Assembly: GCF_020969955.1 (NCBI RefSeq)
Contig: NZ_JAHDSX010000003.1
Coordinates: forward strand, 60,001-92,000
DNA from: Allobaculum fili
GTDB taxonomy: Bacteria; Bacillota_I; Bacilli_A; Erysipelotrichales; Erysipelotrichaceae
DNA: 32,000 nt
Reading direction: 5' to 3'
Positions within the stretch are counted from its first letter, which is position 1; each line of letters opens with the position of its first letter. Below the pieces are notes generated by a model. It saw nothing but the letters and a program-made list of their open reading frames with translations, ran no database searches and was not told the origin of the DNA. A program made the translations under genes and the position numbers. Shown here one piece after another: positions 13,905 through 30,619 of the stretch.

Positions 13905-13909
13905 TTTCA

Positions 13910-14173: not shown

Positions 14174-14266
14174 ACATGTCACTCCTTAAATCCTGAACTG
14201 CCTGATCCAGACATTTACGCTTTTACAGGCAAATTCATTACTTAACTTAAAACGAATTTTCACGCT

Positions 14267-15661: not shown

Positions 15662-16168
15662 TTATTCTTCGCAGGACTCTCCGCAGTTGCCGCAGAAACG
15701 GGCATCCAGCGGAAGTTTGGTGCCACAGAACGGGCAGTATTTAAACGTCATCGGCTGCTCGAACGGGTCTGAACGGTTTGAATCGCCGTTTCCGGTTTTG
15801 TTTCTGGAATCCAGATCTTCACACGGGCTGAGACTTTCGAGTCCATCTAAACTGTCCAGACTCTCAAGATTATCGAGACTGTCCAGATCGATTGAGCGAA
15901 GCTGGTCAAATATGCCGCCGGTTGAAGCGGCAGGTTCCGGTTTTGGCAGGTCCATCGTCTCAGTATGACGATCCCGCAGTTTGAGCTGTTCTTTAAGATG
16001 CGTAATCTGATCAAAATAAAGAATCAGTTCTGGCGTCGGTTCTTCGAAACGATTTTCATAAAACGCTTTGCCCAGTTCCCGGTACGCCGCATCGAGGGCT
16101 TCCAGAGACGATTCCCCTTGATCGGCTTTTGGCATTCGAATAAAAACTGTTTTATTATTTCCGCTCAT
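15662..16168 (-). CDS. Small cytoplasmic protein with C-terminal zinc ribbon and acidic Leu-Asp/Glu-Ser repeats (168 aa)
   Basis: C-terminal CPFCGTKLPLDARFCGNCG zinc-ribbon motif and a central IDLDSLDNLESLDSLDGLESL repeat. The ATG at 16168 lies 4 nt after the upstream stop (TAA 16175-16173). Confidence 0.75.
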   Translation of the reverse strand: MSGNNKTVFIRMPKADQGESSLEALDAAYRELGKAFYENRFEEPTPELILYFDQITHLKEQLKLRDRHTETMDLPKPEPAASTGGIFDQLRSIDLDSLDNLESLDSLDGLESLSPCEDLDSRNKTGNGDSNRSDPFEQPMTFKYCPFCGTKLPLDARFCGNCGESCEE

Positions 16169-16172
16169 AGTC

Positions 16173-16484
16173 TTACCCCAGTACAATCGCAAATTCGCGC
16201 TGCTTCAAATAGATCGCCGTATCCCGCCCAAGGTAATATCGACGATGTTTCCCCAGCGGCTGCCCGCTTTCTAAAAAGACAGCCCGGTTTTCAAACGGCT
16301 CAATTCCATACATGCCCAGATCACAATCGTAAAAAATGCCGACAGACGCCTTTTCGCTCTGTTCCAGAACGACTTCCGGCTCTTCCTCCATCTCCACGAA
16401 CACTTCTTCCAGATGGTGCAGCAGAACCGCTTCTCCCTTATGGAATGAGTCTGTGCCGATCAATACGCCTTCAAATCGGTTCAT
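16173..16484 (-). CDS. Hypothetical 103-aa protein (T7SS-locus associated)
   Basis: ATG 16484 is preceded by AAGGAGGA 8 nt upstream and overlaps the FHA gene 3' end by 14 nt. The track's 140-aa version starts further upstream without an RBS. No recognisable motif. Confidence 0.65.
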   Translation of the reverse strand: MNRFEGVLIGTDSFHKGEAVLLHHLEEVFVEMEEEPEVVLEQSEKASVGIFYDCDLGMYGIEPFENRAVFLESGQPLGKHRRYYLGRDTAIYLKQREFAIVLG

Positions 16485-17424
16485 GACGCAAATCCTCCTT
16501 GCTTTGTTCAAGCTGGAACAGCTGATTGGAGCCAAGGCGAAGAATCTGTCCGTCTCGGATTTCCGATTTCTGCGTGACGGGCTGATAATTGACAAACGTC
16601 TTGGAAGAAGAATTGAGATCTTCCACCATAACGCGATTCTCTTCCAGCGTCAGCCGGGCATGCCGCTCAGAGAGTGTCGTATCAAAATCGATGACAAAGT
16701 CGCTTTGCCTTCCGCATCCGATCAGCAGCTCTTTTTGCAGGCGAATCTGAATGCCCGTATTCATATGACGCAAAAACCAGTTTGACCGGGAACGCACGAT
16801 CGGTTCGGGCTCTGGGATGGAATCGGAATTTTGTACCATACCATCGTCAGAACTTTTCGGTATTTCAGCGAGCACTTCGACAGCTTCGGCAGCTTCGGCG
16901 GCTTCCTCTGGGGCTGGATCGGTTCTGAAGTCCAGCAAGTCATCCAGATCTCGCATAGCCGTATCTTCCGCCTTTTTTTCCTCGACTTCCTGATAATTTT
17001 GTTCCTGCTGAGTTTCGACAGGATCCGCTTTATCCTGCACGATGGTTTCTGCTGGACGTTCCGGTATGATTTCTGGAGCCTTCTTGCTCAAAAGGTCCGT
17101 CTCCACTTTGGAATCTGAGGAAAATTCCCGGAACATCTGATCAAAGATGTCTTTTTTGGATGACGTGGTTTCGTTTTTTGCGGATTCGAAAGCTGGAAAA
17201 CCGGCAGGCTTTTCTTCCGGAAAAACGAACGGTTCGGGTTCGGTCTGGGAATGGATGTTTGAGAAATCGCCGCCGCAGATTTCCTTTTCTTCGCTGTCTA
17301 CGGCTTTATGTCGAATGGGATCGCTGGCTGTTCTGGGAACCACGATCGGAATCAGCCCGCTAATACGGGCGGAAACCGGCGGGATATCCAGTGACGAAAC
17401 AGAAATCCACTTTGCTTTTTTCAT
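16471..17424 (-). CDS. FHA-domain protein with long acidic, probably disordered N-terminal region (317 aa)
   Basis: C-terminal FHA pattern: LLIGCGRQSDFVIDFDTTLSERHARLTLEENRVMVEDLNSSSKTFVNYQPV...DGQILRLGSNQLFQL (G-R ... S..HA ... N.t.vNg). ATG 17424 is preceded by AAGGAAGGA. Confidence 0.85.
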   Translation of the reverse strand: MKKAKWISVSSLDIPPVSARISGLIPIVVPRTASDPIRHKAVDSEEKEICGGDFSNIHSQTEPEPFVFPEEKPAGFPAFESAKNETTSSKKDIFDQMFREFSSDSKVETDLLSKKAPEIIPERPAETIVQDKADPVETQQEQNYQEVEEKKAEDTAMRDLDDLLDFRTDPAPEEAAEAAEAVEVLAEIPKSSDDGMVQNSDSIPEPEPIVRSRSNWFLRHMNTGIQIRLQKELLIGCGRQSDFVIDFDTTLSERHARLTLEENRVMVEDLNSSSKTFVNYQPVTQKSEIRDGQILRLGSNQLFQLEQSKEDLRHEPI

Positions 17425-17625: not shown

Positions 17626-17922
17626 TTATTTCATTTGTCGCTGAAGATCCAGAGCGCTTTCTTCACATCGTTTCAGACTCTCTTCCAGATCCTGAAGGGT
17701 ACGGGTCATTGCCGATTCGTAGTCTTCGAGGAGCTGCTGGAGCTTCTGATTTTCCTGTATCAGCGTTTCGCACGGATGGGCAGCCGCGTGGAGTTCAGGT
17801 GACTGTCTCAGATTTGCGATGATGGAAAGAAGAAGGTTTCTCTCCTGCAGAAGAGTCTCTCTGGAGCGATGGAGCTGTCGTGCCGAGGTTCGAATTTTAT
17901 CCGAAGATCGCATTCGCCTCAT
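17626..17922 (-). CDS. Small coiled-coil protein (95-98 aa), possible T7SS substrate or partner
   Basis: Heptad-like helical sequence (LIQENQKLQQLLEDYESAMTRTLQDLEESLKRCEESALDLQRQ). Start is ATG 17922 or 17913, overlapping the upstream gene's 3' end (stop 17897) by 17-26 nt. Confidence 0.55.
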   Translation of the reverse strand: MRRMRSSDKIRTSARQLHRSRETLLQERNLLLSIIANLRQSPELHAAAHPCETLIQENQKLQQLLEDYESAMTRTLQDLEESLKRCEESALDLQRQMK

Positions 17923-18223
17923 CTTCCAGCGCCTTCAGATCATCCGTGATGGTGCTCTGTGTCTGGGTCATGGAATTGAGATAGTTTTCAATCTGGGTTC
18001 TGGCAGCAATGGTTTTCGTGATTACCGTCTGCACATTATGCAGATGGGTATCCAGGTTTCGGACCGCGTCGTTTCCCACGTTGCCAATTACGCCGTTCTG
18101 CATATTTTCTTTAACTTTCTGCAGGTCTTTCTGATATCCCTGCATCTTATCCAGTTCGGCTCCAAGTTTGTCGAGAGTCTGTCGATATTTTTCTTCCGAG
18201 ACTTTAAGTTTCAGTTTTTCCAT
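17897..18223 (-). CDS. Small helical protein, WXG100/ESAT-6-like size class (108 aa), no W-x-G
   Basis: ~100-aa two-helix-type composition with a G/N-rich turn in the middle (ENMQNGVIGNVGNDAV). The RBS is weak (AAAGAAAG). Confidence 0.6.
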   Translation of the reverse strand: MEKLKLKVSEEKYRQTLDKLGAELDKMQGYQKDLQKVKENMQNGVIGNVGNDAVRNLDTHLHNVQTVITKTIAARTQIENYLNSMTQTQSTITDDLKALEDEANAIFG

Positions 18224-18283
18224 AGTCTTTCTTTTAATGTGTTCTCTTTCTATTTTCTGATTGACTTAGATGTACAGTTTCGA

Positions 18284-18604
18284 TTACTTGCCTTTTCCGA
18301 TGCCGGCAGAGCGGAGGGAATCCGTTGCATTTTTCTCCGCGCCGACCAGGGATTCTCCAGCGCGGATAAAGCCCTTCGCCAGATCCCAGATGACCTGTAC
18401 ACAGGCATCCACCAGATCTACAAACTCATTGCCGACTTCTTTAAGGTGATCCGAGAATGTACCTTCGCTTTCCTCGTACAGCTCTCCAATCAGTGCGTCT
18501 ACCGCTTTGCTGCTTTCCTGGATAACAGTTCCAATGTTTTGAAGATCTTCGGCAGACATATCCATAACTTCTGTTGCGACTTCCAGTTCCCAATTTCCAC
18601 TCAT
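18284..18604 (-). CDS. WXG100/ESAT-6-like small helical protein (106 aa) with degenerate central motif (S-E-G instead of W-x-G)
   Basis: Strong RBS (AAGGAGGAAAG). The N-terminus MSGNWELEVATEV...AEDL is like the M.G.I.V..E.L starts of Esx proteins. The central LYEESEGTFSDHLKEV aligns by eye with the WEGQAFSRFEEQF hairpin of EsxA. Confidence 0.7.
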   Translation of the reverse strand: MSGNWELEVATEVMDMSAEDLQNIGTVIQESSKAVDALIGELYEESEGTFSDHLKEVGNEFVDLVDACVQVIWDLAKGFIRAGESLVGAEKNATDSLRSAGIGKGK

Positions 18605-18630
18605 AGTTCTTTCCTCCTTGTTTCTTTGTT

Positions 18631-18813
18631 TTACTCACCATTTCGGATCAGCCATTCTTTCAGGCGCCGGATCTGCTCGAGCTGAGCCTGACGCGCGTGA
18701 ATGTATTCCCGGGAAAATTCTCCCTCCGTTTCGCGCTGCCAGCTTTCCACGTCCATTTCTATACTGTGGATCAGCCTTTGAATCTGATCGAATAGTTCCT
18801 GTCGGTTCTGCAT
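18631..18813 (-). CDS. Small helical protein (60 aa), T7SS-locus associated
   Basis: The ATG at 18813 overlaps the YukD-like stop as TGATG (translational coupling). All-helical composition. Confidence 0.6.
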   Translation of the reverse strand: MQNRQELFDQIQRLIHSIEMDVESWQRETEGEFSREYIHARQAQLEQIRRLKEWLIRNGE

Positions 18814-19064
18814 CAAAGTAAATATAGTACATCCCCCTGACCGATCGAATAATCTTTCAAATCGTTGCCGCTTTTTAATACGCGCTGCTGTTTTTGACTA
18901 AACAGAACTTCCTGTTCGGAGGCGTAATACTTTCCGCCGGCCAGATTTTCAACCGCCTGAGCGAGCAGCTGGGTCAGTTCCTTGCAGTCCATCGAATCCG
19001 GAACCATCAGGTTGTATGTTTTCTGAATGGAAGGAACGTATAAATCGATCAGTATTTTTTCCAT
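18813..19064 (-). CDS. esaB: YukD/EsaB-family ubiquitin-like T7SS protein (83 aa)
   Basis: MEKILIDLYVPSIQKTYNLMVPDSMDCKELTQLL...LKDYSIGQGDVLYLL fits the YukD pattern (I.IDL ... dL.vp ... L.d.gI.dGD.L.L) and the gene lies immediately downstream of essC. Start is placed at the internal ATG 19064 (GAAAGGAA upstream). The track's 107-aa version lacks an RBS. Confidence 0.8.
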   Translation of the reverse strand: MEKILIDLYVPSIQKTYNLMVPDSMDCKELTQLLAQAVENLAGGKYYASEQEVLFSQKQQRVLKSGNDLKDYSIGQGDVLYLL

Positions 19065-19293: not shown

Positions 19294-22200
19294 CTAGCTG
19301 AGAACCGGCCGTTCATCCTCATCTTCCTGTGCGGTTTTCCTTAAATCGCCAAGCGGAAGGAAAATGGTTTCGACCTGATCGTTTTCCCAGATCAGCCCGT
19401 TATTGAGATTTTGCGTTTTGGATGGACGGACAATTCTGGAATATTCGCGCGGCAAAGTCACCAGATCCTGCCGGTCAAAGCATCCGCCAAATAACAGGGT
19501 CAGTTTCCCTTTGAAATGTGACTTCATCATAGCGTCGAAGCGTTCCGGGTCATTGGCAAGGGTGAATCTTCGAAGTTCTTCTACTTCCTCGAGGGTCAGA
19601 TTCCCTTCGTCCAGCTTTGATTTTTCTGTCTCGTGCAGTTTTCGGCTGGCCAGAGAAATGCGTTCCTTGTCCTGAGGATGCCAGCCGAATACAAAATAAA
19701 TATTGAAACCGGCTGTGTTGTTAATGATCCCGCTTAAAGGTCCGGCAGATCCGGCACTGAGATTCAGGATCAGATCCCCGTAATCGTCCACGAGAATAAA
19801 CAGAGGCTCTGTTCTTCTTCGCATCTCTTTGCGGACGATTTTCAGGCTGGCGGCTTTTTTCCAGTCTTCGATGCCTTTTTCCTTCTGGATTTCCAGGCGG
19901 ATCGTTTTGCGCTCCTTTGCGATTTTCGCAAGCTGATTGACGAACGTGTTCACCGTCTGAGCGGTCAGTTTTGTCCACTCGATTCCTTCTCGATGCGTTT
20001 TGGGAAGCTCAGAAGCACTCAGTCGAATCACAGAGCCCCCGCTCTTTTTGACGGCGGTCTGAATGGCGCCCATGACGTAGTTCACAGCGTCTGGATTTCC
20101 AAAGTAGACAGGCAGGGTGCTCAGCTGCTGAAACGGCAGCGCAATCGGGCGCAGCCGGCTGCGGATAATTCCAAGCGGAATGCGTTCTGGTTTGAACGGC
20201 GCGATGAACTCCTCATACGTCTGTTCCGGATCGATCTGCGTCAGATGATCGGGCTCGGCTGCGTCTTTCCAGATCGTATTCGCGGTTTCAATTTGCGAAA
20301 GGATCTGACCGTAGCGTTCGGCGTCATCGAGCTGAGGGTCGAGCGCGGCTGCCTGGAACTCTAAAACCCGCTTGTCCTTTCGGATGTAGCCGCGTCCGGG
20401 AAGCGGATCGGGAAAGGCCTTCGGCCGGATATCCAGCAGATCCTGATACAGATACATATCGGTCAGCCGTAAGGGCAAAGACGTCTGAATGACGCTCTGC
20501 TGTCTGGCGGTCACATTGCGCACGTCCGCGACGAGAAGCATGAACTGAATGCCGAAAGCCGGTCCGTCCCTCAGCAGCCGAAGAAGCTGATCGAGCGCCT
20601 GACGGCCCTGTCCCCTGTCGGGGAAATCGTCAAATCCGTCAATGATAAAAAACGTCAGCGGAAGGCGCTGCACTCGGCGCATGGACGCAAAGCTCGTCCG
20701 GTTATACTGCGCAAACAGTTTTTTGCGTTTTTCGAGCAGATCGTACGCAAACTGAATGAGCAGGCAGAGTTCCTCTTCGGAAGGTCGGCTCATGCACATG
20801 CCGACATGTTTCAGTTGGGAAAACATGCCCAGTGACTTTCCCGTCAGGTCGGCAATATAAAACTGCAGATCTTCCGGTGAATTTCTATCGATTGAAGTGA
20901 GAAGAATGGTTTCCGCCAGCCAGGTTTTTCCAGTTCCCGGCTCGCCGGCAATTAAAATGTTTCCCGCATTGGCCAGATCCAGCGTATAGGGCAGCTGTTC
21001 CTGATTTTCCGGATCATCCGTCAGACCGATCGTTACCGAATAGGAATCTTCCGGCTGCTTCAGAGAGCTCAGGCTGATCTGCGGATTGAGCGGGTCGAGC
21101 CATAAGGAAGGCACTTCGATTCCCTTCTGTCTGGCCAGATCGGACAAATAGGTCACTAAGGAAACGAGCTGCGAGCGGCCTTTTTGCCGTCTGGTCTGAA
21201 TCGGCTTGGTTTTAAAATACGGTTCGCCATTGGGATCGAGAAAAAGGATTTCCTTGTTTTCCGAAGACTGCGCTTCATCGGACGGCTTATACTCGGCGCC
21301 GGTCCACGCGGACTGACCCATCGCAAAGTACTCGTCGTATCCCACCAGCATGTAAAAGCGGCCGGTTTCCTTGATTTCGGCCGCATAAGGCCGGTTGATC
21401 ATGTCATTGGAGTCGCTGCGGTCCTGAACTTTCAGGCTGACGCGGAATTTGGTGTTGCTTTTGATCTGACCCGTGACGACACCCGCCGGTTTCTGGGTCG
21501 CCAGAATGAGGTGGACGCCAAGGCTTCGGCCGATACGTGCAGTAGAAACGAGCTGATCGAGAAATTCCGGATGCTGGTCATTCAGCTCCGCAAACTCATC
21601 GGAAATAATGAGCAGATGGGAAACCGGTTCGCTCACAACGCCGCGGCGGTAAAGCTGCTGGTAGCCGTAAATGTCCATCGTTCCTTCGTTGGCAATGGAT
21701 TTGGCTTCATTGAATATTTTCTGGCGGCGCTTGAGTTCACTCTCGATCGATGCCAGAGCCCGGTTCATCGTGCTTTCGTCCAGGTTGGTAATCGTACCCG
21801 CAACATGCGGCAGCTTGATTCCGCGCTGCGGATCCACAAACGCGCCCGTAAGACCTCCGCCCTTGAAGTCGATCAGAATAAACGAGACTTCGTACGGATG
21901 ATAGTTAACGGCCAGCGACAGAACGTAGGAAATGATGAACTCACTTTTACCCGACCCGGTCATACCGGCGATCAGGCCATGCGGGCCATGCTTTTTTTCA
22001 TGAATATCCAGCTCAAACAAAGACCCGTCGGGATGGACACCGACTGGTGCAGCCAGCGTTTTCATCGGGTTGGAATCTTTCCAGCGCTGTTCAATATCGA
22101 GATGTTCAATACGGCCGGCTTTGTACATTTCCAGAAAGGTCAGCATCGCCGGCAGTTCTTCTTCCTTTTTCTCTTTGGGACGGCGGATATTGGAAATTTC

Positions 22201-24048
22201 GCTGAACGCCTTCATCAGAGCGTTTCTGGAAATCGAAGCGTCCAGACAGAACAGATCCGGCTTTTCCTGATGTTCCAGCTGCAAAATATGAATGCCTCCC
22301 TCTTCGAGAGAAAAGACTTTCGTACACTCCTTAGGCAGGATGGTCGAAAAGCTGAAAATGCTGAAGCCAAGGTTGTGTCCGGCCGTGACTGCTGTCCAGA
22401 GCGATTTTGCGGATTCAAGCAGTTCCTGCGAAAAGGAGAAGACCAGATAGTACGGCGGGTTTTCCAGAACCTGTTCGCGGCGGCCTTCCTTTTTCTGCGC
22501 TTCTTCCACTCGTTCACTCAGACGCTTGGATGCTTCGGCTGCATCGGCTTCGCTGGTAATAATCCAGCGAAACTCCTGCCGGTCATCCCAGATGTGGGGC
22601 AGAAATTTTAAAAACGGATTTTCCTCCAGCATATCGCGGTCCATGACCAGAATGATTTTCAGCTCTTCCGACGCATGCAAGTAGCAGATCTGAAACAGGA
22701 GCCGGTAAAACAAGGAGAGCTTTCTCTGCAGGCTGCCGCGCACGCCGCAAATGTAATCCTCGATAAAATCGACTGTGATCGGCGCATCCGTCAAGGCGTA
22801 ATCCTGTTCGACGAGCCCGTACATTTTGAGGGCCAGAGAATCTTCATCGACGCCAAACGATCGGGATGGATACTGAATTTCACTTTTGAGCGGAACTTTT
22901 CCTTTGCCGATGCGCAGACGCAGAAAGTCCTGATGAACCGGTCTTCTTTCCCACAGCCGTCTACGGCTGGGCAGAAAGCGGAACAGATCGTCTTCCGACG
23001 GATTGTTTTCGTTGAGGTCCTGCAGTTCCATCGCCTGAACCGTTTCAATCTGATTCTGGATTTCACTGAGATATTCGTTGTAGCGAACATACCGGCGGTT
23101 TTCGTATTCTTTTCGTTCTTTCTCGGTAAACTTCGAAGTCAGCATGGGAAACATGACCGAACTGATCAGAGACGTGAAGTTTCCATTGAGCGCACTCATT
23201 CCGGAAAACACAGCCGGGCCGCCAAGGCGCAGCAGCAGAGGAATCTTGTTGGCGCTCATGGAAAGGGGCGGCAGGTCGACGGTAATTTTGACGGGATCAA
23301 AATGAAACGCACGTTCGCGCGGCTTGCGAAAAAACGGGATGCTTTCCCTTGGTTTGGGAAGAGAAGACCATTCCTTTAACTGAATGGGGTCCGTCAGAGG
23401 CGTCAGGGAGCGCACGACCGTATGTTCGGTCAGGCTCTGGATCGATAAAAAGCCTAATCCGACGACAATCAGACAGCCTGGAAATTCCAGACGGTCGCCG
23501 GCCTGAAGCGAACGCAGCGAAACAAATTCGCCGTTTACGCGCGTTCCAAACGAACTGTGCTCATCGCGCAGATGCATGCCCTCCGAGGAAAGATCGATCG
23601 TCGCATGCAGACGGGAGACGAGCGGATTATCGATTTGAATGTCGTTTTCTGACATTCGGCCGATGTGAATCTGACCGGTGCGCGGCAGGAGAAAGTTTTT
23701 CATCAAAACGGTATCTTCCGCATCCTCGATCAGCAGAACCTGCAGCCGAATCGAACCGAATTCAATTTCAAAGGCTTCCAGATTCTGAAGATCCAGACTC
23801 GTCTGCGGCTGCGTCTGATCCCAGGCTTTCAGCCGCCCGTTTCCAAAAATGGAAATTCTCTGCTCCTTTTCGTTGCGTTCAAACCAGAGGTTGATGAAGC
23901 TGTATCGATCCGAAAGCCAGATGCGACTTCGTCCGATGGGGTACTGGGACAGAGATTTGACCGTGATCAGCTGCCCTTCATGAATGAAGTACAGATTTCT
24001 GGAGCATTCTGGTACCTGTTTTAAAGAGAGTCCCTGTTCTCGACCCAT
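19294..24048 (-). CDS. essC: Type VII secretion ATPase EssC/YukB (FtsK/SpoIIIE family, N-terminal FHA domains), 1584 aa
   Basis: The N-terminal FHA region has a degenerate FHA1 and a canonical FHA2 (IHIGRMSENDIQIDNPLVSRLHATI...FGTRVNGEFV, about nt 23464-23676). A hydrophobic stretch consistent with two TM helices follows (aa ~268-303). There are three P-loop-type domains: D1 Walker A GMTGSGKS (nt 21943-21966) with Walker B LLIISDEF, D2 GEPGTGKT with IIDGFDD, and D3 without a Walker A. The RBS is AGGAAGTG. Confidence 0.95.
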   Translation of the reverse strand: MGREQGLSLKQVPECSRNLYFIHEGQLITVKSLSQYPIGRSRIWLSDRYSFINLWFERNEKEQRISIFGNGRLKAWDQTQPQTSLDLQNLEAFEIEFGSIRLQVLLIEDAEDTVLMKNFLLPRTGQIHIGRMSENDIQIDNPLVSRLHATIDLSSEGMHLRDEHSSFGTRVNGEFVSLRSLQAGDRLEFPGCLIVVGLGFLSIQSLTEHTVVRSLTPLTDPIQLKEWSSLPKPRESIPFFRKPRERAFHFDPVKITVDLPPLSMSANKIPLLLRLGGPAVFSGMSALNGNFTSLISSVMFPMLTSKFTEKERKEYENRRYVRYNEYLSEIQNQIETVQAMELQDLNENNPSEDDLFRFLPSRRRLWERRPVHQDFLRLRIGKGKVPLKSEIQYPSRSFGVDEDSLALKMYGLVEQDYALTDAPITVDFIEDYICGVRGSLQRKLSLFYRLLFQICYLHASEELKIILVMDRDMLEENPFLKFLPHIWDDRQEFRWIITSEADAAEASKRLSERVEEAQKKEGRREQVLENPPYYLVFSFSQELLESAKSLWTAVTAGHNLGFSIFSFSTILPKECTKVFSLEEGGIHILQLEHQEKPDLFCLDASISRNALMKAFSEISNIRRPKEKKEEELPAMLTFLEMYKAGRIEHLDIEQRWKDSNPMKTLAAPVGVHPDGSLFELDIHEKKHGPHGLIAGMTGSGKSEFIISYVLSLAVNYHPYEVSFILIDFKGGGLTGAFVDPQRGIKLPHVAGTITNLDESTMNRALASIESELKRRQKIFNEAKSIANEGTMDIYGYQQLYRRGVVSEPVSHLLIISDEFAELNDQHPEFLDQLVSTARIGRSLGVHLILATQKPAGVVTGQIKSNTKFRVSLKVQDRSDSNDMINRPYAAEIKETGRFYMLVGYDEYFAMGQSAWTGAEYKPSDEAQSSENKEILFLDPNGEPYFKTKPIQTRRQKGRSQLVSLVTYLSDLARQKGIEVPSLWLDPLNPQISLSSLKQPEDSYSVTIGLTDDPENQEQLPYTLDLANAGNILIAGEPGTGKTWLAETILLTSIDRNSPEDLQFYIADLTGKSLGMFSQLKHVGMCMSRPSEEELCLLIQFAYDLLEKRKKLFAQYNRTSFASMRRVQRLPLTFFIIDGFDDFPDRGQGRQALDQLLRLLRDGPAFGIQFMLLVADVRNVTARQQSVIQTSLPLRLTDMYLYQDLLDIRPKAFPDPLPGRGYIRKDKRVLEFQAAALDPQLDDAERYGQILSQIETANTIWKDAAEPDHLTQIDPEQTYEEFIAPFKPERIPLGIIRSRLRPIALPFQQLSTLPVYFGNPDAVNYVMGAIQTAVKKSGGSVIRLSASELPKTHREGIEWTKLTAQTVNTFVNQLAKIAKERKTIRLEIQKEKGIEDWKKAASLKIVRKEMRRRTEPLFILVDDYGDLILNLSAGSAGPLSGIINNTAGFNIYFVFGWHPQDKERISLASRKLHETEKSKLDEGNLTLEEVEELRRFTLANDPERFDAMMKSHFKGKLTLLFGGCFDRQDLVTLPREYSRIVRPSKTQNLNNGLIWENDQVETIFLPLGDLRKTAQEDEDERPVLS

Positions 24049-24234: not shown

Positions 24235-24387
24235 TCAGCTTTTCGCCCGGTATTCTTCGTGAATCGCCTGAAGAATCTGCTGTTCTTTTTTCTCTTTGAC
24301 ATTGTTCAGATAAATCAGAACGGCCAGACAGATCACAACGCCGACAATGGCAATTCCCAGGCAGATGATTCCGATGGTTTTGTTCAT
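24235..24387 (-). CDS. Unlisted 50-aa single-pass membrane peptide (MNKTIGIICLGIAIVGVVICLAVLIYLNNVKEKKEQQILQAIHEEYRAKS)
   Basis: Found by manual translation and too short for the ORF track. ATG 24387-24385 overlaps the kinase TGA (24386-24384) as ATGA. It has one hydrophobic helix followed by a charged tail, with stop TGA at 24237-24235. Confidence 0.55.
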   Translation of the reverse strand: MNKTIGIICLGIAIVGVVICLAVLIYLNNVKEKKEQQILQAIHEEYRAKS

Positions 24388-26375
24388 TCGAGCCATCCTC
24401 CGTTTTCTACTTCTTCATGCTGGGTTTCGAGCAGATCCATCTCGGTATCTCCAGTCGAGCTGTCGTACTGCGCGAAAGCCTGCTGATAATACTGATCAAA
24501 GGTGTGGAACTCCCGGGCCGTAACCGGCGCCGCCAGCTGTCGATCGAGTTCCAGGAACGCGCGGCGTTTCGCATTGTTGTAATGACCGGGCTGTACTTCT
24601 TCCATGCGGGCAATGTTTTTTTCCACTTCATCAAAGCGGCCGAGTTTCTGGTTTACTACGGCCAGATTGTTCAGATCCTGATACGAGGCATAGTTCTGAT
24701 TCACAATTTCCTGAAGAAGATCCGCCTCCTTCTGGAGATACTTCTTGTCTGGCGAATTTGAAGCCAGGCGCGAATAGACGCGAATCAGCCGCTGACGCAT
24801 TCTTAATCCATACGCCTCGGGCAGTTTTTCGATCGCTTCTTCTAAAAGGCCGGCTGCTTTTTCATACTCGCCGACTTCCATTTTCCAGTCCGGAAGGCGG
24901 CAGTAAATCTGATACTGCATAGCCGGATCGGCTGTCTCCATTTTCAGCGCTTCAAGCTGTTCGATCGCCTGCGCGGTATTGCCCATCGCATGCTGGATCT
25001 CGCTCTGGGCAAGGACCAGATCGCCAGACGTCAGTCCGCCAGCCTGTGCCTGTTCCAGAACGGTATTCGCCTGATCGAAGTTTCCAAGATACGCCAGCGT
25101 GATGGCGTAATCGCGCGCCAGTGCGGCGTCGTCTTCCTGTAATTCGTAGGCTGAAGCGTAATTTTGCGCAGCCGGTTCATACTCGCCAAGCGCAAACTGC
25201 GACTCAGCCAGGTTTTTCAGCGCCTGCGCGAGATAGTTCGAATTTTTGGTAATGTCATCCATCTGCAAAACGGTATCCGCCAGATACTGTTCATTTTCCG
25301 CATATTTTCCCTGCGCGATCAGCATGTCCGAGCGCAGCAGGTCCGCATAGCCTTTGGAGGAGCTGACTTCCTTGGCTTTCTGATACGTTTCCTGCGCCTG
25401 GGCATACTGTCCGTTTCGAATCTGTTCGGTCATGGCCGTCGTGAGATGGTCATACTGATCTTTTCCATCCTGCACGATCAGGTAGACCGAGAACGCGCCG
25501 AGCGCGATAAAGAACACCAGCCCGGCAGTACAGAGGGTTTTCAGCGTTTTGACGGTCTTTCGCCATTTGCGAATGCGGCTGCTGGATTCTTCCATCACCG
25601 ACAGATCTTCCTTCATCTGCTCCGCGGATTCGTAGCGATCTTCCGGCTTTTGCGCGAGCGCCTTTTTCAGAATTTCCATAAACTCTTCTGAAGTTTTCGC
25701 GGCCAGCCCGTCCCATTGCGGATCTTCCGGGGTATAAATTTTTCCCATAGCCGCGTGATAGAGGGTGACTCCCAGCGAGTAAATGTCGCTGCGCGGGCTG
25801 AGCGCGCGAAAGCCGGGCATGGATCCGTGTGCCTGGAACTGTTCAAACACCCGTTTCTGTTCGGGAGAGCAGTAGTCTGGCGTTCCGCCGATGCCTTCCG
25901 CGCTGTTTCCTTCCATCGACGCGTTCAGATCAATAAGAACCGCGTCTCCATTTTTTCGAATCATGATGTTGGCCGGCTTTACGTCCAGATGAAGAATCGG
26001 CTTTTCCTGACGATGGAGTTCGCTTAAGGCAGAGGCAATATCCATCCCCATCTGCCGCAGCTGCAGCAGTCCAAAGTTTTCGCCGCTTTCCAGAATCTTT
26101 TCGAGCGAGCGCCCGTCAATAAATTCCATGACGGTGAAAAACTTCCCGTCGACTTCGAGGTAATCGTAGACGGCCGGCAAATACCGGCTTTTCAGTTTTT
26201 TCAGCAGGTTGGCTTCCATGCGGTTGGCTTCCTCATCGATCGAGGGGTTAAGAATCTGCTTTAAAACGACATACCGCCTCAGGTTGATCTGATAGGCCAG
26301 AATCACCAGGCCGCCTGTTCCGCTCCCGATTCTTCCTTTGATCTGATACATTTTCGAAAGTTCCGCTGATGTCAT
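24384..26375 (-). CDS. Hanks-type Ser/Thr protein kinase with a TM helix and C-terminal TPR-like repeats
   Basis: Gly loop GRIGSGTGG, VAIK-like YVVLKQI, catalytic loop HLDVKPAN (nt 25968-25991), DLN in place of DFG (Asp kept) and GTPDYCSPE. Then a TM helix (LCTAGLVFFIALGAFSVYLIV) and ~350 aa of TPR-like helical repeats. I prefer ATG 26375 over the track's TTG at 26411. Confidence 0.9.
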   Translation of the reverse strand: MTSAELSKMYQIKGRIGSGTGGLVILAYQINLRRYVVLKQILNPSIDEEANRMEANLLKKLKSRYLPAVYDYLEVDGKFFTVMEFIDGRSLEKILESGENFGLLQLRQMGMDIASALSELHRQEKPILHLDVKPANIMIRKNGDAVLIDLNASMEGNSAEGIGGTPDYCSPEQKRVFEQFQAHGSMPGFRALSPRSDIYSLGVTLYHAAMGKIYTPEDPQWDGLAAKTSEEFMEILKKALAQKPEDRYESAEQMKEDLSVMEESSSRIRKWRKTVKTLKTLCTAGLVFFIALGAFSVYLIVQDGKDQYDHLTTAMTEQIRNGQYAQAQETYQKAKEVSSSKGYADLLRSDMLIAQGKYAENEQYLADTVLQMDDITKNSNYLAQALKNLAESQFALGEYEPAAQNYASAYELQEDDAALARDYAITLAYLGNFDQANTVLEQAQAGGLTSGDLVLAQSEIQHAMGNTAQAIEQLEALKMETADPAMQYQIYCRLPDWKMEVGEYEKAAGLLEEAIEKLPEAYGLRMRQRLIRVYSRLASNSPDKKYLQKEADLLQEIVNQNYASYQDLNNLAVVNQKLGRFDEVEKNIARMEEVQPGHYNNAKRRAFLELDRQLAAPVTAREFHTFDQYYQQAFAQYDSSTGDTEMDLLETQHEEVENGGWLE

Positions 26376-26543: not shown

Positions 26544-28586
26544 TTAAGCTTTTTTCTTTTTCACACCGTCAGCAGCTTCCGCTGGAGCCTGTGAAGGCTC
26601 GTCTTCTTTTTTCTGGTCCTGCGATTTTTCTTCCTTTGCTTTCAGTTCTGCGCTGTCTTTTTCATCCGGAGTCTGCGTTTTTTCTTCCGCTTCTGAAATG
26701 GCATTAACCCCAGCGTTTTCATTCTGGTCAAAGCGAACCAGTTTCCATTTCCCGTTGATTTTTACCGGCGCAACGCTGCGAATCATCCAGCCGCCGTCTT
26801 CAAACTCTCCGGCGTATTCGACTTTCAGACTGCCGTCCAGCATTTCAAATCCTTTTTTGGAATACGTTCCGATTCCATGCAGACCGGGTCTGGAAACGTC
26901 CAGGATTCCCTCTTTGGATTTCTTTCCGTCTGCGGAAATGATCGTGAACGTCCGATCTGTGTTCAGCGCTAAGAAGGGGCCCAGAGCATAGTTTTCCGTA
27001 TTCACTATGCTCATGGCGGGAACTTCGCGTTCGATCAGTGCAAAACAGGGAATCTGTTTTGCATCGTATGGACCGTAGGCTTTCCGGTTTACCGGATTGT
27101 AAATATAGTAGACATCCTCTTTCGCTTTGTCCTTTGCAGCGGGTGCCTTCTCATCGGAAGCGGCCTTTTTCTCGACGCGAACCAGAATCGGTGCGGCAGG
27201 CTGCTGGATGGCCGCTTTCTCATTTACAGTTTTTTCATTCGCAGAGGTTTCGCCGGACGCCTTTTTTGTATCGTCTGCTCCCGCATTCGGATCCGCTTTT
27301 CCATCCTGAGCGGCATCGGCAGCAGATGGATCGGAATCGGACGCGTCGTTGTTCTCCTTAGCAATCGGTGCTTCCTGGGAAGCAATTTTTTCCGAAGTGT
27401 TTCCGACTACGATAAGTTCGAGCTTTTCGTTGAGCGCGTAATGCGTCGTCTTTTCTGCAGCCGTTTTTTCATTCTTGTCGGCTGCAGCCGGCTTTTCTTC
27501 CTTCTTCGCGGAAGAGGGCTTTTCCTCTTTCTTGACGGGCACAGCTTTTGCTTCATGCAGATCTTTTGTAATTTCGTACTGTTTGCCCTGATCGTCCGCG
27601 CGCAGTGAAACAGACTGGATGCTTTCCGGAATTTTCGCCTGCGAATTTTTCAGCAGAATCTCGCAGCTGAGCTTTCGATCCGTACGGGTAACTTTTCCCT
27701 GCGGGGTCACAAAGCCGTAAACGCCGTCGGCGGCGATCAGCCAGCCCTGTTCGCCAATTTCAATCGGGGTAAAATCGAGCGGACCTAAATCCGCAACTTT
27801 CGTCCATCCCGGATCGGTTTTTCCGTCTTCTTCCGGTCTGGTTACATTGGCGAGCTGCGTATCAAACTCTTCCTGCTCACTGTCCGGCAGACTGGCATGC
27901 GCATCCGCAACGACCTGCTGGGCTTCAATCACATCTCCGCTTTCGATCAGGACCTGATAAAGAAGCAGGTAGGCGTCGGATCGGGCGGGATTGATTTCAA
28001 TTGCGGAATTCAGAAGACGGACAGCGGTCGCCACATCCGCCTGTTCAAGGGAATCCATCGCCTCATTCATATGCTTGCTGTACTGAATCGTATCGGCAGC
28101 CGCATTCATGACTTCTTCGATCGGTACGGCCTGACCCGCTTCGGCCATCTCGTTCACGTTTTGGGTAAACGTATCGTTTTCCTGCTGATCCAGAACGGTC
28201 TGCGCTTCTTCTACGAGCCCGATGAGCTGTTCTTCGTCGCCCTGATTCGAATACAGAGAATAGAGCTGTTCGTACGTATCGGATCGTTTCGGATCAATTT
28301 TCTTGGCTTCCAGAAGCGCTTCTTCCGCTTTGTCGTAATCCTGAGTTTCCATATATTTTTCTGCAGCCGCAATCGCTGCTTCATAGGAGTTTCCAGAATT
28401 CATCGACCGGCCCATCCAGCTGCCAAGGCCTACCCCGGCAGCGACGACTGCAGCCGTGCATCCAATTAAGATTCCTTTTTTGGCGCCTTTGGAAAGGCCG
28501 CCTTTCTTTTCGGGAGCCGGTGCTCCGCAGTTCATGCAGAACTTCATGCCGTCTGGAATTTCTGCTTTGCATTTTGGACATTTCAT
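26544..28586 (-). CDS. Bitopic protein: N-terminal zinc ribbon, TM helix, TPR-like repeats, K/E/A/P-rich linker, WG-repeat-like C-terminal region (680 aa)
   Basis: MKCPKCKAEIPDGMKFCMNCG zinc ribbon, then TM helix GILIGCTAAVVAAGVGLGSW. TPR-like segments follow (YEAAIAAAEKYMETQDYDKAEEALLEAKKIDP...; AVRLLNSAIEINPARSDAYLLLYQV...). There is low-complexity sequence (KKEEKPSSAKKEEKPAAADKNEK) and WG-repeat-like motifs (ADGVYGFVTPQGKV, INGKWKLVRFD). ATG 28586 is preceded by AGGAAGAA. Confidence 0.8.
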   Translation of the reverse strand: MKCPKCKAEIPDGMKFCMNCGAPAPEKKGGLSKGAKKGILIGCTAAVVAAGVGLGSWMGRSMNSGNSYEAAIAAAEKYMETQDYDKAEEALLEAKKIDPKRSDTYEQLYSLYSNQGDEEQLIGLVEEAQTVLDQQENDTFTQNVNEMAEAGQAVPIEEVMNAAADTIQYSKHMNEAMDSLEQADVATAVRLLNSAIEINPARSDAYLLLYQVLIESGDVIEAQQVVADAHASLPDSEQEEFDTQLANVTRPEEDGKTDPGWTKVADLGPLDFTPIEIGEQGWLIAADGVYGFVTPQGKVTRTDRKLSCEILLKNSQAKIPESIQSVSLRADDQGKQYEITKDLHEAKAVPVKKEEKPSSAKKEEKPAAADKNEKTAAEKTTHYALNEKLELIVVGNTSEKIASQEAPIAKENNDASDSDPSAADAAQDGKADPNAGADDTKKASGETSANEKTVNEKAAIQQPAAPILVRVEKKAASDEKAPAAKDKAKEDVYYIYNPVNRKAYGPYDAKQIPCFALIEREVPAMSIVNTENYALGPFLALNTDRTFTIISADGKKSKEGILDVSRPGLHGIGTYSKKGFEMLDGSLKVEYAGEFEDGGWMIRSVAPVKINGKWKLVRFDQNENAGVNAISEAEEKTQTPDEKDSAELKAKEEKSQDQKKEDEPSQAPAEAADGVKKKKA

Positions 28587-30022: not shown

Positions 30023-30256
30023 GAGGCCGGATCGGCTGAACCCATCCGCAAACCAGACGGATCCAGAAGGTATTTTTCTCGTCTGAGGCTTTCTGATCTG
30101 GTGACGCTCAAATACCACAAAACCATGCAAGGTACAGCTCAAAAAGCTGTACCTTGTCTGTTTTCGGATGTCCTGTCCGTCTGGATCTGTCTTTTGAGGA
30201 AAGATTTACAGAATATCTTGCTTTTTACGCTATACTTAAAGCAAGGAATTATACAT

Positions 30257-30619
30257 ATGACAATTGGTGACCGTCTTAAATACATTCGAATTCAGCGCAA
30301 GAAAACTCTTGAAGAAGTCGCGGCAGCCGTCGGCGTCAACCCGACTTCCATTTCCAAATACGAGACCAACCGCATCAAGAACATCCCCCAGAAAAAGCTC
30401 GAAGAGCTTGCCCGCTATTTTGACGTCTCCATTTATTACATTCTGGGACTGACCGATCCGGGAGACGCTTCCCCTCTGATTCTTTCGATTGATGAACAGA
30501 TGCTCGTTGAAGACTATCGAAAGCTTTCCCATGAGGATCAGGTCACCGTGCAGATTCTGGTCAAGCGGCTGCTTGAAGTGGCGTCCGATCCGAAGGATTA
30601 TGTGCAGCTGACGCTGTGA
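30257..30619 (+). CDS. XRE-family helix-turn-helix transcriptional regulator (120 aa)
   Basis: IGDRLKYIRIQRKKTLEEVAAAVGVNPTSISKYETNRIKNIPQKKLEELARYFDVSIYYILG is a textbook HTH_3/XRE domain. ATG 30257 has AAGGAA upstream. Confidence 0.85.
   Translation: MTIGDRLKYIRIQRKKTLEEVAAAVGVNPTSISKYETNRIKNIPQKKLEELARYFDVSIYYILGLTDPGDASPLILSIDEQMLVEDYRKLSHEDQVTVQILVKRLLEVASDPKDYVQLTL

What the first reader, a model, noticed from the sequence alone, without database searches (positions are those of the whole stretch)
24384..26375. Catalytically intact-looking Hanks kinase at the EssB position, plus three FHA modules: possible phosphothreonine gating of a T7SS
Seen: the kinase keeps the Gly loop (GSGTGG), the VAIK-type Lys (VVLKQI), HLDVKPAN (nt 25968-25991), the metal-binding Asp (DLN) and the SPE motif. 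It is bitopic with an extracytoplasmic TPR region. The same operon encodes FHA modules in EssC (canonical FHA2 at about nt 23464-23676) and a stand-alone FHA protein (16471-17424). No PP2C-type phosphatase is visible in the window. Established: FHA domains bind phosphothreonine. EssB/YukC of canonical T7SSb is a bitopic pseudokinase that contacts the EssC N-terminal region. The Pseudomonas H1-T6SS is switched on by the PpkA kinase phosphorylating the FHA protein Fha1. Inference: here an active kinase may replace, or be ancestral to, the EssB pseudokinase and control assembly or firing through FHA-phosphothreonine interactions in response to an extracellular cue sensed by the TPR domain.
Basis: partly seen in the sequence, partly recalled or inferred. 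Interest (0 to 1): 0.65.

Follow-up and report, generated by a model that had tools for sequence, protein, structure and literature searches.

The report
Sensor kinase beside a type VII secretion ATPase
A gut Clostridia-type bacterium encodes an apparently active membrane serine/threonine kinase next to its type VII secretion motor and phosphothreonine-reader (FHA) domains, an arrangement and regulatory idea already published in 2024, so this is a further, slightly different example, not a new principle.

Summary
ORF 24384-26375 (-) is a genuine Hanks-type Ser/Thr kinase (Pfam Pkinase 107.5 bits). Every catalytic residue is invariant across 24 homologues. It has one membrane helix and an outside TPR domain, and shows no detectable match to EssB/YukC. 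It lies directly upstream of a true EssC with a tandem FHA N-terminus. A separate FHA protein lies downstream, and the window holds no PP2C phosphatase.

Garrett, Higginson and Palmer (2024, PMC11217815) already described T7SS subtypes c, d, e and j. These have an EssB-topology active kinase (TsxD, with a TPR ectodomain in TsjD), FHA proteins, Zn-ribbon proteins and proposed phosphothreonine control.

This locus is nearest T7SSe by its ATPase. It lacks the phosphatase and the Ig-like component. In both FHA domains that match Pfam's FHA model the third phosphothreonine motif (NG) is lost.

Relatives of this kinase sit next to FHA-ABC exporters more often than next to EssC. That favours a portable kinase-FHA regulatory cassette over an EssB substitute or ancestor.

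Verdict: real, a variant of a known kind, moderate interest.

The parts
24384..26375 (-). Bitopic Hanks-type Ser/Thr kinase, 663 aa (TsxD-like). Kinase domain aa 10-249 (nt 25629-26348), membrane helix aa 283-301 (nt 25473-25529), extracytoplasmic TPR region aa ~305-663 (nt 24387-25463).
   Evidence: Pfam Pkinase 107.5 bits plus TPR families. Catalytic residues are invariant in 24 homologues. Aligns to M. tuberculosis PknB over aa 2-258. AF2 mean pLDDT 87.9. PDB fold matches are all true kinases. Membrane helix from hydropathy.
24235..24387 (-). 50-aa single-pass membrane protein whose start overlaps the kinase stop. It has a short basic/acidic cytoplasmic tail ending EEYRAKS (TsxH-like).
   Evidence: Translation and called gene. 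A 48-50 aa equivalent follows the kinase in L084, L086 and L089, with a conserved tail.
19294..24048 (-). EssC/TsxC ATPase, 1584 aa. Degenerate FHA1 aa ~17-108 (nt 23725-24000). FHA2 aa ~116-205 (Pfam 128-189, nt 23482-23667) with GR (130-131), SRLH (145-148) and SSFGT in place of the NG motif. Walker A motifs GMTGSGKSE (695-703) and GEPGTGKTW (1035-1043).
   Evidence: TIGR03928 803.7 bits, above the cut-off. Pfam FHA and FtsK_SpoIIIE. AF2 of aa 1-223 has pLDDT 87.9; its best PDB matches are EssC/YukB tandem FHA structures 5fwh, 9qks_H and 1wv3. Motifs.
18813..19064 (-). YukD/EsaB-like ubiquitin-fold protein, 83 aa (TsxB-like).
   Evidence: Pfam YukD 24.6 bits, E 4.4e-5, just under the cut-off of 27. 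36-37% identical to the equivalent gene after EssC in L089, L090 and L092.
17626..18816 (-). Four small helical proteins (60, 106, 108 and 98 aa). They are candidate WXG100-like substrates or partners.
   Evidence: The 106-aa protein gives a weak full-length WXG100 match (E 0.058). The same series of small genes follows EssC in L089, L090 and L092. Their identity as WXG100 proteins is not established.
16471..17424 (-). Stand-alone FHA protein, 317 aa. [quoted passage not shown]
   Evidence: Pfam FHA E 3.4e-14 with no DUF6382 hit. Motifs.
26544..28586 (-). Zn-ribbon, one membrane helix, then an extracytoplasmic TPR/low-complexity protein, 680 aa, immediately upstream of the kinase (TsxK-like with a large ectodomain).
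   Evidence: Pfam Zn_Ribbon_1 and TPR_19. Membrane helix. Similar Zn-ribbon/TPR proteins flank the kinase in L084, L086 and L089.
15662..16484 (-). 103-aa protein with no matched family (16173-16484) and a 157-aa C-terminal Zn-ribbon protein (15662-16135), which close the co-directional gene run.
   Evidence: Called genes. Pfam Zn_Ribbon_1. No family for the 103-aa protein.

Best explanation
The gene encodes a catalytically competent, bitopic Hanks-type Ser/Thr kinase with an extracytoplasmic TPR sensor domain. It is the TsxD-type component of a non-canonical, EssB-less type VII secretion locus. By its ATPase the locus is closest to T7SSe; its kinase ectodomain is like that of T7SSj.

Proposed mechanism, step by step:
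1. A signal at the cell envelope acts on the TPR ectodomain, possibly together with the neighbouring Zn-ribbon/TPR membrane protein and the 50-aa membrane partner. This step is inferred.
2. The kinase phosphorylates threonines on itself or on a cluster protein. The acidic low-complexity region of the FHA protein and the EssC linker are candidates. This step is inferred.
3. FHA2 of EssC and/or the stand-alone FHA domain bind these phosphothreonines, changing assembly or ATPase activity of the secretion machine after translation. This step is inferred.

What is shown:
- The kinase fold and its intact catalytic residues.
- The topology.
- That the ATPase is a true EssC with a tandem FHA N-terminus.
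- Conserved genetic linkage of this kinase family to FHA-bearing membrane ATPases.

The kinase is better seen as a portable kinase-FHA regulatory cassette, as in PknF-Rv1747 or T6SS PpkA-Fha1, than as a structural stand-in for EssB.
For: Kinase:
- Pkinase scores 107.5 bits and there is no YukC hit.
- G19, G22, K39, E54, D131, K133, N136, D149, E172, D197 and R247 are invariant in 24 homologues that share only 23-40% identity with the window kinase.
- It aligns to PknB residue for residue. Fold matches are true kinases.

EssC:
- It passes the EssC equivalog cut-off and has a tandem FHA fold.
- FHA2 alone is closest to the phosphothreonine-binding FHA domains of Rv1747, GarA, EmbR and OdhI.
- FHA2 and the stand-alone FHA domain keep the phosphate-contacting Arg and Ser, and the His.

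Linkage:
- EssC relatives at 38-45% identity all carry kinases, with or without PP2C and FHA proteins.
- The closest kinase relatives (37-39% identity) lie near both an EssC and an FHA-ABC exporter whose FHA has the full GR/SxxH/NG signature.
- By tblastn, 15-17 of 21 dereplicated metagenome clusters of this kinase family encode an FHA protein within the flanks.

Published precedent:
- Garrett et al. 2024 found kinase presence correlated with FHA motif conservation in TsxC.
- A 2026 preprint shows threonine phosphorylation of an FHA protein controlling Esx genes in an actinobacterium.
Against: - No biochemical data exist for any member.
- The NG asparagine, one of the three canonical phosphothreonine-binding motifs, is replaced in both FHA domains. 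It is Phe in EssC across the subclade P0121-P0124 and Val in P0125-P0126, and Ser in the FHA protein. Binding may therefore be altered or lost.
- The Mg-binding motif is DLN (DFN in the family) and not DFG.
- No PP2C is in the window, so reversibility is unexplained.
- One relative with a degenerate GR still has a kinase and PP2C, so the motif-kinase correlation is imperfect.
- The kinase family is linked to ABC exporters more often than to EssC, so EssC need not be its main target here.
- A terminator-like hairpin sits at the 3' end of essC, so a single operon is not proven.
Confidence: 0.6

Rival explanations
1. The kinase is a general envelope-signalling kinase. Its real partners are other FHA proteins or transporters (for example an FHA-ABC exporter encoded elsewhere in this genome) or the Zn-ribbon/TPR membrane proteins. 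Its position next to essC would then reflect a shared genomic island, not direct control of secretion.
For: Among 21 dereplicated metagenome clusters of this kinase family, 9 are adjacent to an FHA-ABC exporter and only 3 to EssC; some have neither. In L084 the kinase is adjacent to the FHA-ABC gene and 8 kb from EssC. Zn-ribbon/TPR proteins travel with the kinase whether or not EssC is present.
Against: In this window no FHA-ABC gene is present. The kinase is separated from essC only by its 50-aa partner gene, on the same strand. In the EssC-centred view, every inspected EssC that keeps GR has a kinase. EssC FHA2 keeps the Arg and Ser phosphate ligands.
Confidence: 0.2
2. The kinase is the structural replacement, or an ancestral form, of the EssB/YukC pseudokinase. 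It would be a scaffold that binds the EssC FHA domains and nucleates the membrane complex, with catalysis dispensable.
For: It has the same bitopic topology and the same gene position directly upstream of essC. No EssB, EsaA or EssA is found in the window or in seven related EssC loci. In B. subtilis the YukC pseudokinase dimer contacts the YukB FHA domains (literature cited).
Against: No sequence similarity to YukC even at E<=10. No EssB/YukC among the top 50 fold matches. Strict conservation of all catalytic residues implies selection for catalysis. The same kinase family works beside ABC exporters, which have no known EssB-like core component. The ectodomain is TPR and not the EssB C-terminal fold.
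Confidence: 0.1
3. The kinase controls the locus at the level of transcription. This would resemble IreK-dependent induction of the Enterococcus T7SS, or the Esr1 pathway of Schaalia. It could act through the FHA protein or the nearby XRE-type regulator, with no direct gating of the machine.
For: Published examples of kinase-dependent transcriptional control of T7SS are cited. An HTH_19/XRE regulator is encoded at 30101-30619 (+). The stand-alone FHA protein has a low-complexity region followed by a C-terminal FHA domain, similar to the output protein EsrG.
Against: The FHA protein has no DNA-binding domain. The ATPase itself carries an FHA domain with the phosphate ligands retained, which is hard to explain under purely transcriptional control.
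Confidence: 0.1

Closest known systems
TsxD membrane Ser/Thr kinases of T7SS subtypes c, d, e and j (Garrett, Higginson and Palmer 2024, Microlife 5:uqae013, PMC11217815), especially T7SSe and T7SSj
   Same: N-terminal cytoplasmic kinase with a conserved active site, one membrane helix and a helical outside domain (TPR in TsjD). It is encoded with an FHA-bearing TsxC ATPase, a YukD-like TsxB, small helical proteins, a C-terminal-FHA protein, a Zn-ribbon membrane protein and a tiny single-pass membrane protein. The same phosphothreonine hypothesis applies. The N-terminal 570 aa of this EssC match the paper's TseC representative best: 170 bits and 29% identity, against TsdC 107, TsfC 87, TsiC 80, TsjC 71 and S. 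aureus EssC 43 bits.
   Different: No PPM/PP2C phosphatase (TsxF) and no large Ig-like TsxI in the window. The FHA protein lacks DUF6382. The NG motif is lost in the ATPase FHA (reported as 90-100% conserved in TsdC, TseC and TsjC). A TPR ectodomain, the T7SSj trait, is combined with a T7SSe-like ATPase. The locus comes from unnamed gut-metagenome Clostridia, whereas that survey used RefSeq genomes.
EssB/YukC pseudokinase of canonical T7SSb
   Same: Bitopic protein with a cytoplasmic kinase fold, encoded directly upstream of essC. In T7SSb it contacts the EssC/YukB FHA domains.
   Different: EssB has a mutated catalytic triad and does not bind ATP (literature quoted). Here all catalytic residues are intact. 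There is no detectable sequence similarity. The ectodomain differs.
PknF-Rv1747 of Mycobacterium tuberculosis (kinase plus FHA-bearing ABC exporter)
   Same: [quoted passage not shown] Close relatives of this kinase sit beside FHA-ABC exporters. EssC FHA2 is 38% identical to Rv1747 FHA-2 in the structural alignment. The PknF-Rv1747 regulatory relationship is from my own knowledge of the literature and was not checked here.
   Different: In this window the FHA-bearing ATPase is an FtsK/SpoIIIE-type EssC and not an ABC exporter. The kinase carries a TPR ectodomain.
T6SS threonine phosphorylation pathway (PpkA/PppA/Fha1 in Pseudomonas; TssL phosphorylation in Agrobacterium)
   Same: A membrane kinase with an outside sensor domain, plus an FHA protein, controls a secretion machine after translation. 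This serves as a functional analogy (cited).
   Different: The secretion machinery is unrelated and the hosts are diderm. A dedicated PP2C phosphatase is part of that pathway; none is seen here.
Esr threat-sensing pathway linked to Esx in Actinomycetales (bioRxiv 2026, PMC13622651)
   Same: [quoted passage not shown] The pathway is genetically linked to Esx/T7SS genes.
   Different: That pathway uses MoxR, vWA and a beta-propeller surface sensor, and occurs in Actinomycetota with T7SSa-type machinery. None of those components is in this window.

Membership tests
Hanks-type (eukaryotic-like) Ser/Thr protein kinase, Pfam PF00069 | Profile match above the curated cut-off | tested here: met
   107.5 bits against a cut-off of 31.7, E 9.8e-31, covering profile positions 1-253 of 263.
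Hanks-type (eukaryotic-like) Ser/Thr protein kinase, Pfam PF00069 | Catalytic residues: Gly-rich loop, VAIK Lys, alpha-C Glu, HxD catalytic Asp with Lys and Asn, DFG Asp, APE Glu | tested here: met
   GSGTGG, K39, E54, H129-L-D131-V-K133-P-A-N136, D149 and S-P-E172 are all invariant in 24 homologues and align to the PknB equivalents. Two variants: HLD (a non-RD kinase) and DLN/DFN in place of DFG.
Hanks-type (eukaryotic-like) Ser/Thr protein kinase, Pfam PF00069 | ATP binding and phosphotransfer activity | not testable with these tools
   Needs purified protein.
EssB/YukC T7SSb pseudokinase (PF10140, TIGR03926) | Sequence match to the YukC/EssB models | tested here: not met
   No hit in Pfam at E<=10 on the kinase domain or at E<=0.01 on the full protein. 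No hit in NCBIfam.
EssB/YukC T7SSb pseudokinase (PF10140, TIGR03926) | Degenerate catalytic triad (pseudokinase) | tested here: not met
   The catalytic residues are intact and conserved.
EssB/YukC T7SSb pseudokinase (PF10140, TIGR03926) | Bitopic topology and a gene directly upstream of essC | tested here: met
   One membrane helix at aa 283-301. Only a 50-aa ORF lies between the kinase and essC.
EssC / TsxC type VII secretion ATPase | Match to the EssC equivalog model above its cut-off, with FtsK/SpoIIIE ATPase domains | tested here: met
   TIGR03928 scores 803.7 against 778.4. Two FtsK_SpoIIIE stretches are found, and Walker A motifs are present.
EssC / TsxC type VII secretion ATPase | Tandem FHA N-terminus | tested here: met
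   The AF2 model of aa 1-223 matches 5fwh, 9qks_H and 1wv3 over 215-222 columns.
Phosphothreonine-binding FHA domain | The three motifs GR, SxxH and NG | tested here: inconclusive
   EssC FHA2 has GR and SRLH but F-G in place of N-G. The stand-alone FHA has GR and SERH but S-K in place of N-G. FHA1 lacks SxxH and NG. That is two of three motifs; binding itself was not tested.
Kinase-associated T7SS subtypes of Garrett et al. 2024 (T7SSe / T7SSj) | TsxD: membrane kinase with a conserved active site and an outside helical/TPR domain | tested here: met
   The definition is quoted.
Kinase-associated T7SS subtypes of Garrett et al. 2024 (T7SSe / T7SSj) | TsxF: PPM/PP2C phosphatase in the cluster | tested here: not met
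   None in the 32-kb window. PP2C genes are present in the related loci L090, L091 and L092.
Kinase-associated T7SS subtypes of Garrett et al. 2024 (T7SSe / T7SSj) | TsxI: large secreted Ig-like protein with a C-terminal membrane helix | tested here: not met
   No such protein lies in the co-directional cluster, and no Ig-like family hit was found in any window ORF scanned. The 879-aa protein at 8059-10698 has a C-terminal hydrophobic helix but no family match, and a gene on the opposite strand separates it from the cluster.
Kinase-associated T7SS subtypes of Garrett et al. 2024 (T7SSe / T7SSj) | TsxJ: DUF6382 N-terminus plus a C-terminal FHA | tested here: inconclusive
   The C-terminal FHA is present. 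There is no DUF6382 hit even at E<=10.
Kinase-associated T7SS subtypes of Garrett et al. 2024 (T7SSe / T7SSj) | TsxB (YukD-like), TsxA (WXG100) and TsxK (Zn-ribbon, one membrane helix) | tested here: inconclusive
   YukD scores 24.6 bits, just under the cut-off of 27. WXG100 gives only E 0.058. A Zn-ribbon protein with one membrane helix is present but carries a large ectodomain.
Kinase-associated T7SS subtypes of Garrett et al. 2024 (T7SSe / T7SSj) | ATPase falls in the TseC or TsjC clade | tested here: inconclusive
   BLASTP of the N-terminal 570 aa against representatives retyped from the paper's Fig. S2 gives TseC as best (170 bits, 29% identity) and TsjC at 71 bits. No phylogeny was built, and the reference sequences came from text extracted from a PDF, with errors.

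The most novel reading that the evidence does not exclude
This locus and its relatives (L084, L089 and the EssC clade P0121-P0126) form a further, undescribed T7SS subtype in gut Clostridia of the Lachnospiraceae type. Its features would be:
- a T7SSe-like ATPase;
- a TPR sensor kinase with a dedicated 50-aa membrane partner;
- no cluster phosphatase and no Ig-like conduit protein;
- a remodelled FHA pocket in which Asn is replaced by Phe or Val.

The same kinase cassette is shared between EssC and FHA-ABC exporters. This would imply a modular kinase-FHA switch that evolution plugs into unrelated membrane translocases.
Probability: 0.35. Interest if true: 0.5.

Novelty: new variant of a known kind. 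Interest (0 to 1): 0.35.

Why it matters
No kinase-linked T7SS from Bacillota has been tested experimentally in the papers I retrieved; control by phosphothreonine remains a bioinformatic proposal there. This locus adds three points:
- It extends the kinase-linked T7SS to abundant gut Clostridia known only from metagenomes.
- The kinase family is shared with FHA-ABC exporters. This argues for a regulatory role over a structural, EssB-like role, and gives a comparative handle on the mechanism.
- It is a natural variant without a cluster phosphatase and with an altered FHA pocket. Such a variant is useful for asking which FHA contacts are needed.

It does not open a new question. It gives one more, somewhat unusual, test case for an existing one.

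Tried and rejected
- The genome-contig scan with the full kinase alignment used generic kinase motifs. It did bring in Neobacillus and Clostridium loci where PP2C and a kinase sit near EssC and/or a YukD-like gene.
- The metagenome scan with the EssC N-terminal alignment failed twice. There was no conserved stretch, and then 402 pattern matches gave no true relative. A scan with the TPR-region motif [YF][YF]RDYAI worked.
- hhalign of the EssC FHA1 region against the FHA2 region gave only 43% probability. I relied on structure prediction for FHA1.
- The accession lists in the paper's Supplementary Data 5 could not be turned into sequences. Subtype assignment therefore rests on N-terminal fragments retyped from Fig. 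S2.
- I considered the 879-aa and 659-aa membrane proteins and the Tubulin_2 protein as missing T7SS components (EsaA- or TsxI-like). No family evidence supports this, and a gene on the opposite strand separates them from the cluster.
- I looked for candidate phosphorylation sites matching pT-x-x-[ILV] in the EssC linker and the FHA protein. These regions are not conserved among relatives, so I name no site.
- The promoter/terminator scan gave nothing decisive on operon structure.
Full report
**1. What is at 24384-26375**

The minus-strand ORF translates to a 663-aa protein starting at the ATG at 26375.
- Pfam assigns aa 10-249 to Pkinase (E 9.8e-31, 107.5 bits, cut-off 31.7). Several TPR families match aa ~318-594.
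- NCBIfam's best partial matches are PknB/Stk1-type kinases.
HLDVKPAN is at nt 25968-25991.
- phmmer against PDB sequences puts M. tuberculosis PknB first. The alignment pairs K39 with the VAVK lysine, HLDVKPAN with HRDVKPAN, DLN with DFG, and GTPDYCSPEQ with GTAQYLSPEQ.
- In an alignment of 24 homologues only 23-40% identical to the window protein, these residues are invariant: G19, G22, K39, E54, D131, K133, N136, D149, E172, D197 and R247. This is the pattern of an enzyme under selection for catalysis.
- Two departures from the textbook motifs are family traits and not decay. The catalytic loop is HxD without the Arg, so this is a non-RD kinase. The metal-binding motif is DFN (DLN here) in place of DFG.
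- Hydropathy finds one membrane helix at aa 283-301. The AF2 model (mean pLDDT 87.9) shows a kinase lobe pair, one long helix through the membrane and an all-helical repeat domain.
- With a basic stretch before the helix and the ATP-dependent domain at the N-terminus, the TPR domain is predicted to lie outside the cell. This is an inference.

**2. Kinase or EssB-type pseudokinase?**

- No YukC/EssB model matches, even at E<=10 on the isolated kinase domain, nor in NCBIfam.
- The top 50 Foldseek matches of the model in the PDB are all bona fide kinases (Pho85, S. aureus PknB/Stk1, M. tuberculosis PknA/PknI, MEK1 and others). No EssB/YukC entry appears among them.

**3. The surroundings**

All genes from 28586 down to 14267 are on the minus strand. 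In order they are:
- a Zn-ribbon / one-helix / TPR membrane protein (680 aa);
- the kinase;
- a 50-aa single-pass membrane protein whose start overlaps the kinase stop;
- EssC (1584 aa);
- a YukD-like 83-aa protein (24.6 bits, just under Pfam's cut-off);
- four small helical proteins, one with a weak full-length WXG100 match (E 0.058);
- the 317-aa FHA protein;
- a 103-aa protein;
- a 157-aa Zn-ribbon protein;
- an acyltransferase_3.

EssC passes NCBIfam's equivalog cut-off (TIGR03928, 803.7 vs 778.4 bits). No EssB, EsaA, EssA or PP2C is detectable in any sizeable ORF of the window. tblastn with four PP2C proteins taken from related loci also finds nothing.

**4. The FHA modules**

- The AF2 model of EssC aa 1-223 (pLDDT 87.9) matches, over its full length, the tandem-FHA N-termini of Geobacillus EssC (5fwh), B. 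subtilis YukB in the T7SSb core complex (9qks_H) and S. aureus EssC (1wv3).
- Its second half alone matches phosphothreonine-binding FHA domains: Rv1747 FHA-2 at 38% identity, then GarA, EmbR and OdhI.
- So the ATPase has two FHA folds, but only FHA2 is recognised by Pfam (aa 128-189).
- I used the three motifs tabulated in the literature: GR, SxxH and NG.
  - FHA2 has GR (130-131) and SRLH (145-148), but SSFGT where S-x-N-G-T is expected.
  - The stand-alone FHA has GR, SERH and SSSKT.
  - FHA1 lacks SxxH and NG.
- The Asn replacement (Phe in P0121-P0124, Val in P0125-P0126) is shared by these closest EssC relatives. The next clade (P0127-P0131) keeps NG.
- The direct phosphate ligands (Arg, Ser) are therefore retained, while the peptide-backbone ligand (Asn) is not. 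The roles assigned to these residues are from my knowledge of Rad53 FHA1 and were not tested here.

**5. Is the kinase-FHA-T7SS link conserved?**

*EssC-centred view.* Relatives with 38-45% identity all carry kinases nearby.
- L089 has an FHA-ABC exporter, an FHA protein, a kinase-TPR, a 50-aa membrane protein, a Zn-ribbon protein, EssC, a YukD-like protein and the same series of small proteins.
- L090 has a kinase, two PP2C, a vWA-FHA protein and EssC.
- L091 has two PP2C, a kinase, a PASTA kinase and EssC.
- Of three relatives whose FHA has lost the Arg, two have no kinase or phosphatase (L093, L094). One still has a PP2C and a kinase with a beta-propeller ectodomain (L092).

*Kinase-centred view.*
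- The nearest homologue (39% identity) sits beside an FHA-ABC exporter and 8 kb from an EssC.
- An uncultured Merdimonas homologue sits beside an FHA-ABC exporter, with no EssC in reach.
- A Lachnospiraceae homologue is 1.5 kb from an FHA-EssC.
- One homologue has neither.
- A metagenome scan with a TPR-specific motif gave 80 loci, which fall into 21 clusters at 80% identity. Nine are next to an FHA-ABC exporter, three next to EssC, 15-17 next to some FHA protein and three next to a PP2C.
- The FHA of the ABC exporter in L084 has the complete GR/SxxH/NG signature.

The constant partner of this kinase family is therefore an FHA-bearing membrane ATPase. That partner may be an ABC exporter or EssC.

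**6. What this means for mechanism**

The data fit a regulatory cassette. An envelope signal acts on the TPR ectodomain. The kinase creates phosphothreonines. FHA domains on the translocase and on an adaptor protein read them. None of these steps has been shown for any member; they are inferred from domain content and conserved linkage.

- There is no sequence or preferential fold similarity to EssB.
- Catalysis is conserved.
- The same kinase family serves ABC exporters.

A scaffold role in addition to catalysis cannot be excluded.

**7. Comparison with what is known**

- Garrett, Higginson and Palmer (Microlife 2024, PMC11217815) surveyed EssC neighbourhoods in RefSeq and defined T7SSc to T7SSj.
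  - They describe TsxD kinases with one membrane helix and a cytoplasmic kinase domain. They note 'similar topology to EssB' but 'no apparent sequence identity', with the active site conserved.
  - They describe PPM phosphatases (TsxF), DUF6382-FHA proteins (TsxJ), Zn-ribbon single-pass proteins (TsxK), tiny single-pass proteins (TsxH) and Ig-like TsxI.
  - They show that GR/SxxH/NG conservation in TsxC tracks with the presence of a kinase.
  - They propose control by phosphorylation, with the T6SS as analogy. TsjD has a TPR ectodomain.
- A 2026 paper notes the shared bitopic arrangement of TsxD kinases and EssB-like pseudokinases.
- A 2026 preprint shows experimentally that a kinase pathway phosphorylates an FHA protein to control Esx genes in an actinobacterium.

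**8. Where this locus fits**

- BLASTP of the N-terminal 570 aa of this EssC, against representatives retyped from the paper's Fig. S2, ranks TseC first (170 bits, 29% identity). TsdC (107), TsfC (87), TsiC (80), TsjC (71) and S. aureus EssC (43) follow.
- Gene content resembles T7SSe/j, with B, C, D, H-like, J-like and K-like components and small helical proteins.
- It differs in four ways: no phosphatase, no Ig-like component, no DUF6382 on the FHA protein, and loss of the NG motif. It also combines a TsjD-like TPR ectodomain with a TseC-like ATPase.
- I therefore file it as a variant of a known kind, not as a clean member of T7SSe or T7SSj. A proper phylogeny could not be built here.

**9. 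Source organism**

The exact proteins are known only from Logan assemblies of sequencing runs and carry no names. Named relatives of the kinase are uncultured Merdimonas, Lachnospiraceae, Acetatifactor, Paralachnospira, Oscillospiraceae and Hydrogeniiclostridium, and most of the related metagenome contigs that carry a source label are human gut. A gut Clostridia origin, probably Lachnospiraceae, is an inference.

**10. Verdict**

Its regulatory core is plausible and backed by conserved linkage. The EssB-replacement or ancestor idea has no support. The claim of three functional FHA modules is too generous.
- The concept is published. The locus is a new variant. Interest is moderate.

Noticed in passing
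window 1834-10698 (-): A 1197-aa protein with an N-terminal Tubulin_2 domain (PF13809, E 1.4e-60) lies between an 879-aa and a 659-aa membrane protein. Neither neighbour matches any Pfam or NCBIfam family. This is an unexplained three-gene module downstream of the T7SS cluster, separated from it by a DUF6020 gene on the plus strand.
   Followed up: partly
window 24235-24387 (-); L084 11995-12141; L086 12010-12156; L089 7377-7529: A 48-50 aa single-pass membrane protein always follows the kinase gene, overlapping or directly abutting its stop. It has a conserved cytoplasmic tail ([DE][DE]Y-x-RK[GS]). It may be a dedicated partner or substrate of the kinase.
   Followed up: partly
L084 7461-9890, L086 7091-9457, L089 2397-4706; metagenome loci L095-L174: The same kinase-TPR family is usually encoded beside an ABC exporter with N-terminal FHA domains plus a small FHA protein. 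This resembles PknF-Rv1747 of M. tuberculosis. It was seen in 9 of 21 dereplicated clusters, against 3 with EssC.
   Followed up: yes
window 23542-23556 (EssC aa 165-169); P0121-P0126: The conserved Asn of the FHA 'NG' motif is replaced by Phe or Val throughout the closest EssC subclade. The next clade keeps it. This is a lineage-specific remodelling of the phosphopeptide pocket.
   Followed up: partly
window 26544-28586 (-) and 15662-16135 (-); many genes in L084, L086, L089: Zn-ribbon proteins are strikingly abundant around these kinases. Several have one membrane helix and TPR or WG-repeat ectodomains. Their role is unknown.
   Followed up: no
L092 17479-20298; L091 6393-9983; L088 16133-20613: T7SS-linked kinases in related loci carry different outside domains (RCC1/WD40 beta-propeller, PASTA, LRR). 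Some loci encode two or three kinases. This suggests swapping of sensor domains on a common kinase-FHA-EssC chassis.
   Followed up: no
window 19286-19311 (-): A terminator-like hairpin (9 pairs, 6 G-C) overlaps the essC stop codon, ahead of the YukD-like and small-protein genes. It might set different expression levels for the machine and its substrates.
   Followed up: no
window 12039-15541: A DUF6020 membrane protein (plus strand) and an acyltransferase_3 (minus strand) lie at the downstream edge of the cluster. These are possible cell-envelope modification genes. Any link to the T7SS is unknown.
   Followed up: no
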